From: Escherichia coli
GTDB lineage: Bacteria > Pseudomonadota > Gammaproteobacteria > Enterobacterales > Enterobacteriaceae
Direction: 5' to 3' (one strand)
Assembly: GCF_016026235.1 (NCBI RefSeq)
Contig: NZ_CP065613.1
Length of the DNA stretch: 64,000 bases
The position numbers and the translations under genes were made by a program. Each line of letters starts with the position of its first letter. The first letter of the stretch is position 1. The notes beneath the pieces are model-generated. The model saw only the letters and a program-made list of their open reading frames with translations, was not told where the DNA came from and made no database searches. Of this stretch, positions 38,363 through 39,995 are shown piece after piece.

Positions 38363-38422
38363 TCAGATAAGGCGTTTTCGTCGCATCCGACATTCGCACA
38401 CGATGCCTGATGCGACGCTGGC
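38363..38422. repeat. REP (repetitive extragenic palindromic) element, left portion interrupted by IS150
   Basis: Typical REP sequence GCATCCGACATTCGCACACGATGCCTGATGCGACGCTGGC; its continuation GCGCGTCTTATCAGGCC is found on the far side of the IS element at 39855. Confidence 0.75.
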
Positions 38423-38454
38423 TGAACTGAACCCCAAAACCTGGACAGTTTCAG

Positions 38455-39177
38455 TTAACCGGCTTTTTGATACTCAGTCCGGTATTCTACCGAGCTGAGT
38501 CCCCCAAGACTGAGTTTTATTCTTTTTTGATTCCAGTAAGTTATGTATTCGTTAACAGCATTTTCCAGCTCTTCTACACTTCTGTAGTCCCGGCGATAGT
38601 ACATTTCTTCTTTCAGGTGACCAAAGAAATTCTCCATTACCGCATTATCAAGGCAGTTGCCCTTGCGCGACATGCTCTGCACTAACCCTTTGTCTGCCAG
38701 GGCAGACTGATAACTTTTTATCCGGTAATGCCACCCTTGATCACTGTGGAGCAGCGGTTTTTCTCCTTCTGCAAGGCTTTCCAGCCCCTTATTTAACATG
38801 CGCTTCACCAGCTCCTCTGTAGGCCTGCAGGCAGTTTCCCACGCCACGATTTCCCCGTTAAACAAATCAAGTATCGGGGACAGGTACAGTTTTTGTCCGC
38901 CAGCCCTGAATTCGGTGATATCTGTCACCCATTTCTCACAGGGAGCTTCCGCTTTGAACTGCCGCTGAAGGATATTTTCTGCAGCGAGTCCCATATTTCC
39001 CCGGTAAGACCGGTATTTCTTCAGGCGCACAGGAGACTTCAGGCCGAGCTGTTGCATCAGTTTTCGCACTGTTTTGCCACTGAACTTAAGACCTCTTTTC
39101 TGAAGCTCACAATGGATCCGCCGGTACCCATAACATCCCCAGTGTTCATGGAAGATGGAGGCTATGAGCTGTTTCAC
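38455..39177 (-). CDS. insK: IS150 transposase OrfB (InsK), integrase/DDE catalytic domain; full OrfB begins upstream in the -1 frame overlapping insJ
   Basis: Translation MKQLIASIFHEHWGCYGYRRIHCELQKRGLKFSGKTVRKLM...YITYWNQKRIKLSLGGLSSVEYRTEYQKAG, which I recognise as IS150 InsK. A slippery A7G run is present on the minus strand near 39324-39331. Confidence 0.9.
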   Translation of the reverse strand: MKQLIASIFHEHWGCYGYRRIHCELQKRGLKFSGKTVRKLMQQLGLKSPVRLKKYRSYRGNMGLAAENILQRQFKAEAPCEKWVTDITEFRAGGQKLYLSPILDLFNGEIVAWETACRPTEELVKRMLNKGLESLAEGEKPLLHSDQGWHYRIKSYQSALADKGLVQSMSRKGNCLDNAVMENFFGHLKEEMYYRRDYRSVEELENAVNEYITYWNQKRIKLSLGGLSSVEYRTEYQKAG

Positions 39178-39281
39178 ATCAGCATACTTGTCCTTAGCCT
39201 TCTGCAGTGACAGCTGGTAGTACAGCGTGCTTCTGGCCAGCCCTGCAGCCTTTAACAGGTCAGACTGGCAGTGTCCGCACT

Positions 39282-39803
39282 TCAGGCTCTGGATGACTTT
39301 CGTTTTTTCTCCAGCTCCTGGCGCTTTTTTTCCAGGAGATGCTCCTGCATGGCTTTCAGATATGCATTTTCTGCGCGAAGATAACGCAGCTCATTCTTCA
39401 TCTCTTCCGGCGTCATGTTTCCCTCGTTTTCATGGGTATCATCAGAACGGGTCATGCTTTTCTCCTTCCTGCGCCTGATAAAGGCCTCATTACCAGATTT
39501 GCGGTAGCCTTTTATCCAGTTTTTAACCATGTTGTGGCTGAGAATGTTAAACCGGGCAGCTACCCGGGGTAGAGACTCAGAATGCCCGAGAGCATAAAGA
39601 ACCACGCAAAGTTTATCTTCAGGAGAATAGCTACGCTTGTGTCTGCAATCCAGTGCCTGAGGACCGTGAAGAAGAAAAAGATTAATCCAGTGTGAGAGGC
39701 TGGTGTGAGAAAGTTGAAAGAGTTTTGCCGTAGAAATGATGCCTGCATGACCGGCCAGGTAATGATTTACAGCGGCAAGTTTTACTTCAAATGAATGTTT
39801 CAT
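39282..39803 (-). CDS. insJ: IS150 transposase OrfA (InsJ), helix-turn-helix DNA-binding protein
   Basis: Translation MKHSFEVKLAAVNHYLAGHAGIISTAKLFQLSHTSLSHWINLF...LEKKRQELEKKRKSSRA, which I recognise as IS150 InsJ. Confidence 0.9.
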   Translation of the reverse strand: MKHSFEVKLAAVNHYLAGHAGIISTAKLFQLSHTSLSHWINLFLLHGPQALDCRHKRSYSPEDKLCVVLYALGHSESLPRVAARFNILSHNMVKNWIKGYRKSGNEAFIRRRKEKSMTRSDDTHENEGNMTPEEMKNELRYLRAENAYLKAMQEHLLEKKRQELEKKRKSSRA

Positions 39804-39854
39804 AAACTGCACCTTCAGATGTCAGATTATGTCCAACATTTGGGGTGCAGTTCA

Positions 39855-39995
39855 TGGCGCGTCTTATCAGGCCTAAAGGGATTTCTAACTCATTGATAAA
39901 TTTTTTTTTGTAGGTCGGATAAGGCGTTCACGCCGCATCCGACATTTGCACAAGATGCCTGATGCGACGCTGTCCGCGTCTTATCAGGCCTACGT
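39855..39995. repeat. REP/BIME cluster (remainder of interrupted REP plus additional REP copies)
   Basis: GCGCGTCTTATCAGGCCTAAAGG..., then GTAGGTCGGATAAGGCGTTCACGCCGCATCCGACATTTGCACAAGATGCCTGATGCGACGCTGTCCGCGTCTTATCAGGCCTACGTGCGGCATCAGACAAATG. Confidence 0.75.

What the first reader, a model, noticed from the sequence alone, without database searches (positions are those of the whole stretch)
38419..39858. IS150 inserted inside a REP element between mutT and yacG
A complete IS150 (insJ and insK with an A7G slippery site, imperfect terminal inverted repeats) splits a canonical REP sequence: GATGCGACGCTGGC | IS150 | TGGCGCGTCTTATCAGGCC, with (T)GGC duplicated at both sides. REP elements are known preferred targets for some IS elements. 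The insertion lies between convergent 3' ends of mutT and the coaE-zapD-yacG operon, so it is probably neutral, but an intact IS150 indicates an active element in this strain and a possible site for rearrangements.
Basis: partly seen in the sequence, partly recalled or inferred. Interest (0 to 1): 0.45.

Follow-up and report, generated by a model that had tools for sequence, protein, structure and literature searches.

The report
IS1397 inserted in a REP element
The mobile element between mutT and yacG is a complete copy of IS1397, not IS150; IS1397 is the E. coli insertion sequence already known for inserting specifically into REP palindromes, so this is an ordinary, already-explained feature.

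Summary
A complete 1,432-bp IS3-family insertion sequence (window 38423-39854, transposase on the minus strand) splits a REP/palindromic unit. It is flanked by a 4-bp target duplication TGGC (38419-38422 and 39855-39858) and lies between the convergent 3' ends of mutT and yacG.

The name is wrong. The element is 99.7-99.9% identical to copies that RefSeq names IS1397. It is only 50% identical in DNA to K-12 IS150, and its OrfA and OrfB are 28% and 50% identical to InsJ and InsK.

The REP association is therefore not a coincidence. Held literature states that IS1397 is experimentally shown to insert into REP sequences. All ten independent IS1397 insertion sites I read (window included) sit in the centre of a palindromic unit, with 3-4 bp duplications.

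K-12 and Ec1120 have exactly the predicted empty site, an intact palindrome with a single TGGC, and about 5,125 of 5,426 complete E. coli genomes match the empty-site sequence contiguously. Only FDAARGOS_943 shares this occupied site. NCTC10444 has an independent IS1397 in a neighbouring palindrome of the same intergenic region.

The copy has open reading frames, an A AAA AAG frameshift site and a DDE triad. It also carries two private amino-acid changes (P88L, R222W), so activity is not assured.

Verdict: already known, low interest.

The parts
37972..38361 (+). mutT (8-oxo-dGTP diphosphatase), intact 129-aa ORF; its 3' end faces the insertion
   Evidence: ORF; homologous regions annotated mutT
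38362..38391 (.). Intact palindromic unit (REP) immediately after the mutT stop codon; first unit of the intergenic BIME
   Evidence: Inverted repeats I2/I4; sequence; the same unit is present in K-12
38405..38422 (.). Left half of the target palindromic unit (GCCTGATGCGACGC) plus the left copy of the target duplication TGGC (38419-38422)
   Evidence: (I1, I7); the intact unit GCCTGATGCGACGCTGGCGCGTCTTATCAGGC is seen in K-12 and Ec1120
38423..39854 (-). IS1397, complete 1,432-bp copy (IS3 family)
   Evidence: 99.7-99.9% full-length identity to RefSeq copies named IS1397; 5-copy alignment without gaps; a Logan contig of exactly 1,432 bp bounded by the same termini
38423..38447 (-). Right terminal inverted repeat (IRR), downstream of orfB
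   Evidence: 21 of 25 matches to IRL; ends TG...CA
39830..39854 (-). Left terminal inverted repeat (IRL), upstream of orfA
39803..39854 (-). 5' leader hairpin: the terminal 11 nt of IRL (39844-39854) pair with the Shine-Dalgarno/ATG region of orfA (39803-39813)
   Evidence: MFE -23.9 kcal/mol, z = -5.2, 0 of 200 shuffles as stable; inverted repeat I10. The function is inferred.
39282..39803 (-). orfA (173 aa, helix-turn-helix DNA-binding protein), coordinates include the stop codon
   Evidence: Pfam HTH_28/HTH_Tnp_1 hits; the PGAP CDS start in FDAARGOS_943 maps to the same ATG
39324..39331 (-). Programmed -1 frameshift motif A AAA AAG, in register with orfA
   Evidence: PGAP annotates 'programmed frameshift' on the homologous copies
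38455..39324 (-). orfB part of the OrfAB transposase (449-aa fusion); DDE triad D295, D355, E391, with K398
   Evidence: Pfam rve/rve_2/HTH_21; NCBIfam transpos_IS3 377 bits against a cut-off of 160
39855..39872 (.). Right copy of the target duplication TGGC (39855-39858) plus the right half of the target palindromic unit (GCGTCTTATCAGGC)
   Evidence: (I1, I11)
39914..39989 (.). Second, uninterrupted pair of palindromic units of the same BIME (39914-39943 and 39957-39989)
   Evidence: I8, I12, D1, D2
40013..40210 (-). yacG (DNA gyrase inhibitor), intact 65-aa ORF, convergent with mutT
   Evidence: annotation

Best explanation
This is a full-length copy of IS1397, an IS3-family insertion sequence closest to IS150 within that family. 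It integrated into the central loop of a palindromic unit (REP) of the BIME between mutT and yacG.

How it works, from established IS3-family knowledge applied to the anatomy seen here. OrfA (helix-turn-helix) is translated normally. A programmed -1 ribosomal frameshift at A AAA AAG fuses OrfA to OrfB, giving the 449-aa DDE transposase OrfAB. The transposase binds the two about-25-bp terminal inverted repeats and makes a circular copy of the element (copy-out). It then integrates that copy (paste-in) with staggered cuts, which are repaired into a 3-4 bp direct repeat; here the repeat is TGGC. For IS1397 the transposase itself directs integration to the centre of enterobacterial palindromic units.

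The insertion is lineage-specific. It is shared with strain FDAARGOS_943 and absent from nearly all other E. coli. It leaves mutT, yacG and an intact palindromic unit next to each gene untouched, so it is most likely neutral.

Shown here: the element's identity, its boundaries, the duplication, the empty site, the ORF, frameshift and DDE anatomy, and the palindromic-unit-centre position at ten independent sites. Inferred: the transposition pathway, current activity, and neutrality.
For: Identity. The element is 99.7-99.9% identical over all 1,432 bp to copies PGAP names IS1397 family, and 1,707 of 5,426 genomes hold a copy covering at least 80% of it.

Anatomy. It has TG...CA ends and 21 of 25 matching inverted repeats. 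orfA and orfB overlap in the 0 and -1 frames with an in-register A AAA AAG. Domain hits are HTH_28, HTH_21, rve and rve_2. NCBIfam transpos_IS3 scores 377 bits against a cut-off of 160. The triad is D295/D355/E391 with K398.

Target. TGGC is duplicated. K-12 and Ec1120 have the intact palindrome with one TGGC. About 5,125 of 5,426 genomes match the empty-site construct contiguously.

Specificity. Eight further loci in eight genomes are rof-tilS, yjjV, yjcO-gltP, speB-loiP, aldB, yjdM, ompG-ycjW and pepN. Each has the IS exactly in the centre of a palindromic unit, in either orientation, with 3- or 4-bp repeats. NCTC10444 has an independent insertion in another palindromic unit of the same mutT-yacG BIME, with repeat GGT.

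Literature. IS1397 is 'experimentally proved' to insert into REP elements, and evidence suggests that the transposase is responsible for the specificity (PMC1525189, citing Clement 1999, Wilde 2001 and Wilde 2003).
Against: Nothing contradicts the identification.

I could not align against the originally deposited IS1397 sequence or read the primary papers, which are not held. The name therefore rests on PGAP annotation of near-identical copies plus the behavioural hallmark.

Activity of this particular copy is uncertain. It carries two private nonsynonymous changes, P88L at 39541 and R222W at 39141. They are absent even from the same-site copy in FDAARGOS_943. R222 is also R in IS150 InsK.

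No convincing frameshift-stimulating structure was found downstream of the slippery site. The best fold has z = -2.6 and its stem starts at the last base of the motif.

Only one copy lies in the window, so the copy number in this strain is unknown.
Confidence: 0.96

Rival explanations
1. The element is IS150 (insJ/insK), and happens to have landed in a REP.
For: It has the same overall architecture and the same A AAA AAG frameshift motif. The termini are related (TGAACTGCACCC against TGTACTGCACCC). OrfB is 50% identical to InsK.
Against: DNA identity to K-12 IS150 is 50% (718 of 1,428). OrfA is 28% identical to InsJ. The length is 1,432 bp against 1,443 bp. The element is 99.7% identical to elements named IS1397.
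Confidence: 0.01
2. The palindrome halves are part of the mobile element itself, as extended inverted repeats, rather than a pre-existing target. On this reading the 43-nt inverted repeat I1 would be the true end of a larger element.
For: the repeat finder reports 43-nt arms that are 77% complementary and span the IS ends plus the REP halves (I1).
Against: K-12 and Ec1120 have the intact palindrome at this very position without the IS. About 5,125 genomes match the empty-site construct contiguously. At other loci the flanking palindromes are of different sequence types and orientations with different duplicated bases. A short-read assembly breaks the repeat exactly at TGAACTG...CAGTTCA.
Confidence: 0.01
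3. The copy is structurally complete but transpositionally dead, a resident fossil, because of its private P88L and R222W substitutions.
For: Both changes are absent from the four other full-length copies aligned and, at these two positions, from the FDAARGOS_943 and NCTC10444 mutT-yacG copies, including the copy at the identical site. R222 lies in the HTH_21 region and is also R in IS150 InsK. No gene product with exactly this 240-aa OrfB sequence is on record.
Against: P88L alone occurs in a 1,432-bp contig of another sample whose ends coincide with the IS termini, as a repeat collapsed from several copies would, so P88L is probably tolerated. There are no stop codons or frameshifts, and the inverted repeats, slippery site and DDE triad are all intact. 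The ends remain usable in trans by other copies if the strain has them; FDAARGOS_943 has 4 places. The failed look-up is weak evidence, because gene callers may pick another start.
Confidence: 0.3

Closest known systems
IS1397 (IS3 family; Bachellier/Clement/Wilde/Hofnung work, cited in PMC1525189)
   Same: It is 99.7-99.9% identical to the copies RefSeq names IS1397 and has the same 1,432-bp length. It has the same two-ORF frameshift organisation. It inserts in the centre of E. coli palindromic units with 3-4 bp duplications.
   Different: There are two private amino-acid substitutions, P88L and R222W. This chromosomal site is rare: 1 other genome of 5,426.
IS150 of E. coli K-12 (insJ/insK)
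   Same: It belongs to the IS3 family and has the same A AAA AAG frameshift motif. The terminal repeats are similar. OrfB is 50% identical. The element also has TG...CA ends.
   Different: DNA identity is 50% and OrfA identity 28%. It is 11 bp shorter.
ISKpn1 of Klebsiella pneumoniae and IS621 of E. coli (other REP-targeting IS elements)
   Same: Both are reported to insert specifically into REP sequences (PMC1525189).
   Different: ISKpn1 targets Klebsiella-type palindromic units. IS621 belongs to the IS110 family, which has a different transposase. Neither was compared by sequence here.

Membership tests
IS1397 | Near-identity in DNA to IS1397 (the usual IS-naming convention, recalled from memory: above about 90-95% identity) | tested here: met
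   99.7% over 1,432 of 1,432 bp to many RefSeq copies whose product is named 'IS3-like element IS1397 family transposase'; gap-free 5-copy alignment. The originally deposited reference sequence itself was not available.
IS1397 | Insertion into the central part of an enterobacterial palindromic unit (REP) with a short target duplication | tested here: met
   The window splits GCCTGATGCGACGC-TGGC-GCGTCTTATCAGGC. The empty site is seen in K-12 and Ec1120. Nine further independent insertions are all palindrome-centred with 3-4 bp repeats. The property is documented in PMC1525189.
IS1397 | Demonstrated transposition activity of this copy | not testable with these tools
   Only sequence integrity can be judged. 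The ORFs are open, but private P88L and R222W changes are present.
IS3 family | Transposase matches the IS3-family profile above the curated cut-off | tested here: met
   NCBIfam NF033516 transpos_IS3: 377 bits against a cut-off of 160, covering profile positions 1-369 of 369. Pfam rve, rve_2, HTH_21 and HTH_28 are all above their gathering scores.
IS3 family | Two overlapping ORFs in frames 0 and -1 with a slippery heptamer giving an OrfAB fusion | tested here: met
   orfA is in frame 0 and orfB in frame -1. A AAA AAG is in register at IS positions 525-531, and the fusion is 449 aa. PGAP annotates 'programmed frameshift' on the homologues. Frameshifting itself was not measured.
IS3 family | Imperfect terminal inverted repeats ending 5'-TG...CA-3' and a 3-4 bp target duplication | tested here: met
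   TGAACTG...CAGTTCA, 21 of 25 inverted-repeat matches, TGGC duplicated.
IS3 family | DD(35)E catalytic triad with a K/R seven residues after the E | tested here: met
   D295 (WVTDITEF), D355 (HSDQGW), E391 (NAVMENFF) and K398; the D-E spacing is 36. All three motifs align with identical residues in IS150 InsK. The catalytic role is inferred from family knowledge.
IS150 | Near-identity to the IS150 reference (K-12 insJ/insK, 1,443 bp) | tested here: not met
   50% DNA identity; OrfA 28% and OrfB 50% amino-acid identity; length 1,432 bp against 1,443 bp.
REP / palindromic unit within a BIME | Extragenic, GC-rich imperfect palindrome of about 35 bp of the GCC(G/T)GATGCG...CGC...ATC(C/A)GGC type, clustered in alternating orientation | tested here: met
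   The reconstructed target and three further units at 38362-38391, 39914-39943 and 39957-39989 alternate in orientation between mutT and yacG. The same array is present in K-12. Assigning the units to the Y or Z2 types is from memory only.

The most novel reading that the evidence does not exclude
The most novel reading still open is that the mutT-yacG BIME is a recurrent hotspot for IS1397. Two independent insertions are seen in different palindromic units of the same 280-bp spacer. On this reading the insertion is not neutral. The transposase gene is antisense to mutT, so read-out transcription across the right inverted repeat, or loss of the second palindromic unit downstream of mutT, could lower the level of the MutT antimutator and subtly raise the mutation rate in this lineage.
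Probability: 0.03. Interest if true: 0.45.

Novelty: already known. Interest (0 to 1): 0.1.

Why it matters
It matters little beyond correct annotation. The case shows how a misnamed IS changes the reading. Called IS150, the REP target looks like a curiosity. Called IS1397, it is the expected hallmark of a well-studied REP-specific element.

The practical value is modest:
- The insertion is a rare, lineage-specific marker. One other genome of 5,426 shares it, which could help strain typing.
- It adds one more natural example of IS1397 palindrome-centre targeting.
- The two private substitutions warn against equating open reading frames with activity.

Tried and rejected
1. IS150 identity was rejected after aligning to the K-12 IS150 reference and comparing the proteins.

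2. I tried to read the primary IS1397 papers (PMC94167, PMC169884, PMC95333). None is held. I relied on PMC1525189 and on my own survey of insertion sites.

3. I looked for a frameshift-stimulating RNA structure after the slippery site. The result was weak (z = -2.6, stem abutting the motif), so I make no claim from it.

4. The promoter and terminator consensus scan of the region found nothing above the shuffled expectation, and no hit in the left inverted repeat.

5. I searched the window for further or partial IS1397 copies and found none.

6. I looked up the exact 240-aa OrfB product to see whether the R222W variant exists elsewhere. It is not on record, but this is inconclusive because gene callers may choose another start.

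7. K-12's RefSeq feature table, as served here, has no REP features for this spacer, so REP status rests on the sequence itself.

8. Several loci fetched in parallel were not copied to the scripting sandbox. I read their junctions through get_sequence and DNA alignment instead.

Full report
**Observation**

The sequence at 38200-40100 shows mutT ending at 38361, followed by a palindromic unit (38362-38391). Next comes GCCTGATGCGACGC TGGC, immediately followed by TGAACTGAACCCCAAAACCTGGACAG. At the far side, ATGTCCAACATTTGGGGTGCAGTTCA is followed by TGGC GCGTCTTATCAGGCC.

The element proper is therefore 38423-39854, 1,432 bp. It has TG...CA ends and imperfect inverted repeats of about 25 bp with 21 of 25 matches. 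The 4-bp TGGC is present on both sides, at 38419-38422 and 39855-39858.

On the minus strand there are two overlapping ORFs. orfA runs 39803-39282 and encodes 173 aa. An ORF in the -1 frame ends at 38455. The A7G motif at 39331-39324 is in register as A AAA AAG in the orfA frame. A -1 slip gives a 449-aa OrfAB fusion.

mutT (+) and yacG (-) are convergent (annotations).

**Identity**

The element is not IS150. I fetched the annotated IS150 of K-12 MG1655 (1,443 bp, insJ/insK) and aligned it.
- DNA identity is 718 of 1,428 aligned positions, or 50%.
- OrfA is 28% identical to InsJ.
- The OrfB part is 50% identical to InsK.

By contrast, a megablast of the 1,432 bp against 5,426 complete E. coli genomes finds full-length matches at 99.7-99.9% identity. 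RefSeq/PGAP names the product of these matches 'IS3-like element IS1397 family transposase', with a programmed frameshift. In all, 1,707 genomes have a copy covering at least 80% of the query.

A five-copy alignment is gap-free over all 1,432 columns. A short-read (Logan) contig from SRR3000442 is exactly 1,432 bp and is bounded by the same termini, which supports the boundaries independently.

The protein-level results fit an IS3-family transposase:
- NCBIfam transpos_IS3 scores 377 bits against a cut-off of 160.
- Pfam finds HTH_28, HTH_21, rve and rve_2.
- The DDE motifs are D295, D355 and E391, with K398. They align with identical residues in InsK.

The termini are similar (TGAACTGCACCC against TGTACTGCACCC), the slippery heptamer is the same, and OrfB is 50% identical. 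From memory, ISfinder places IS1397 in the IS150 subgroup of the IS3 family; I did not test that placement beyond these similarities.

**Target and empty site**

I joined the two flanks with a single TGGC to make a 596-bp predicted empty-site sequence. It matches at least 80% contiguously in 5,125 of 5,426 genomes.

K-12 reads gatgcctgatgcgacgcTGGCgcgtcttatcaggcctaaaggg, which is the intact palindromic unit with one TGGC. Ec1120 reads the same.

With 300-bp flanks on each side of the IS, only FDAARGOS_943 matches end to end. It has the same junctions and the same TGGC.

NCTC10444 also has IS1397 between mutT and yacG, in the same orientation, but its BIME has three pairs of palindromic units instead of two. 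There the IS sits in a different unit, with a 3-bp duplication GGT. The unit that is occupied in the window is intact in that strain. That is an independent insertion into the same spacer.

**Is the REP association chance?**

It is not. I fetched IS1397 copies at eight other loci from eight genomes: rof-tilS, yjjV, yjcO-gltP, speB-loiP, aldB, yjdM, ompG-ycjW and pepN. I then read both junctions of each.

In every case the IS is flanked by the two halves of a palindromic unit. The units have GCCGGAT- or GCCTGAT-type stems and occur in either orientation relative to the IS. The duplications are 3 or 4 bp: TAA, CAC, CCA, GCCA, GTA, GCAA, GCC and TGAC.

Together with the window and NCTC10444, that makes ten of ten independent insertions in the centre of a palindromic unit.

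This agrees with the held literature. Tobes and Pareja (PMC1525189) state that IS1397 inserts specifically within REP sequences of E. coli and that this is experimentally proved. [quoted passage not shown] They cite Clement et al. 1999, Wilde et al. 2001 and Wilde et al. 2003. The primary papers are not held.

The alternative that the REP halves belong to the element is suggested by the 43-nt inverted repeat I1. It is excluded by the empty-site alleles and by the variety of flanking units.

**Mechanism**

Shown here:
- inverted repeats with TG...CA ends;
- the OrfA helix-turn-helix;
- an in-register A AAA AAG;
- an OrfAB fusion with an integrase-core DDE domain;
- a 4-bp target duplication.

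Inferred from established IS3-family biology (the copy-out-paste-in pathway worked out for IS911, IS2 and IS3; my own knowledge): OrfAB is made by programmed -1 frameshifting. It forms a circular copy with abutted ends, and that circle integrates into the target with a 3-4 bp stagger.

For IS1397 the target is the loop of a palindromic unit. How the transposase recognises the unit (duplex sequence or extruded hairpin) cannot be addressed here.

One further feature concerns the 5' end. The first 11 nt of the left inverted repeat pair with the Shine-Dalgarno/ATG region of orfA. The fold has an MFE of -23.9 kcal/mol and z = -5.2, and 0 of 200 shuffles fold as well. Such hairpins in other IS elements block translation of transcripts reading in from outside; here that role is an inference.

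I found no convincing frameshift-stimulating structure. The consensus scan found no promoter above chance.

**Consequences for the host**

mutT and yacG are intact ORFs. One intact palindromic unit remains directly after mutT, and an intact pair remains after yacG. Neutrality is therefore the most likely reading, though it was not tested.

**Activity of this copy**

The copy has no stop codons or indels. It does differ from the four other full-length copies aligned at two positions:
- IS position 314 (window 39541) is C to T, giving P88L in OrfA.
- IS position 714 (window 39141) is C to T, giving R222W in the HTH_21 region of OrfAB.

At both positions the FDAARGOS_943 copy at the identical chromosomal site has C. 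R222 is also R in IS150 InsK.

P88L alone is present in the Logan contig, which is bounded exactly by the IS termini. That is what a repeat collapsed from several copies would look like, so P88L is probably tolerated. R222W was not found elsewhere, but the look-up is weak evidence.

Only one copy lies in the window. The nearest relative, FDAARGOS_943, has four places.

**Verdict**

This is a correctly observed but misnamed feature: IS1397, not IS150, inserted in its canonical target. It is already known biology and of low interest. The specific site is rare and could serve as a lineage marker.

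Noticed in passing
L015:701-790 (K-12 MG1655 NZ_CP010439.1 4344363-4344427 and flank, between yhhI and yhhJ): Many genomes lack a full IS1397, K-12 among them: 3,496 genomes have some match but only 1,707 have a near-full copy. All of those sampled in the spread listing carry, as their only match, a fragment of about 56-65 bp of the IS1397 right end. In K-12 it is 65 bp, IS positions 1368-1432, at 96.9% identity. It is directly followed by the right half of a palindromic unit (TAAACGCCTTATCCGGCCTA) and is preceded by the ISEc1/H-repeat transposase gene yhhI. 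It looks like the fossil of an old IS1397-in-REP insertion that was truncated.
   Followed up: partly
L004:1380-1570 and 2990-3140 (NCTC10444 mutT-yacG spacer), compared with window 38357-39992: The mutT-yacG BIME varies in copy number: two pairs of palindromic units in the window, K-12 and FDAARGOS_943, and three pairs in NCTC10444. NCTC10444 carries an independent IS1397 insertion (duplication GGT) in a different unit of the same spacer.
   Followed up: yes
window 39803-39854 (- strand): There is a strong predicted RNA hairpin in which the outermost 11 nt of the left inverted repeat pair with the ribosome-binding site and ATG of orfA (-23.9 kcal/mol, z = -5.2). It could silence translation of transcripts entering from yacG-side read-through.
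   Followed up: partly
window 39141 and 39541: There are two private C-to-T changes on the transposase strand, giving R222W and P88L. They are absent from the other IS1397 copies compared, including the copy at the same site in FDAARGOS_943. P88L alone is seen in a Logan contig from SRR3000442.
   Followed up: partly
window 39893-39901: The T-run in the linker between the palindromic units is polymorphic: T9 in the window, T8 in FDAARGOS_943, and TTTGTTTTT in K-12, Ec1120 and NCTC10444.
   Followed up: no
L005-L013 (IS1397 copies in other genomes): At five of the nine other loci fetched (rof-tilS, yjcO-gltP, speB-loiP, ompG-ycjW, aer-nfeR) the annotation shows IS1397 lying between the 3' ends of convergent genes, which is also the arrangement in the window. 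At the other four, a flanking gene is annotated on only one side of the short stretch fetched, or the second is an unnamed hypothetical ORF.
   Followed up: partly
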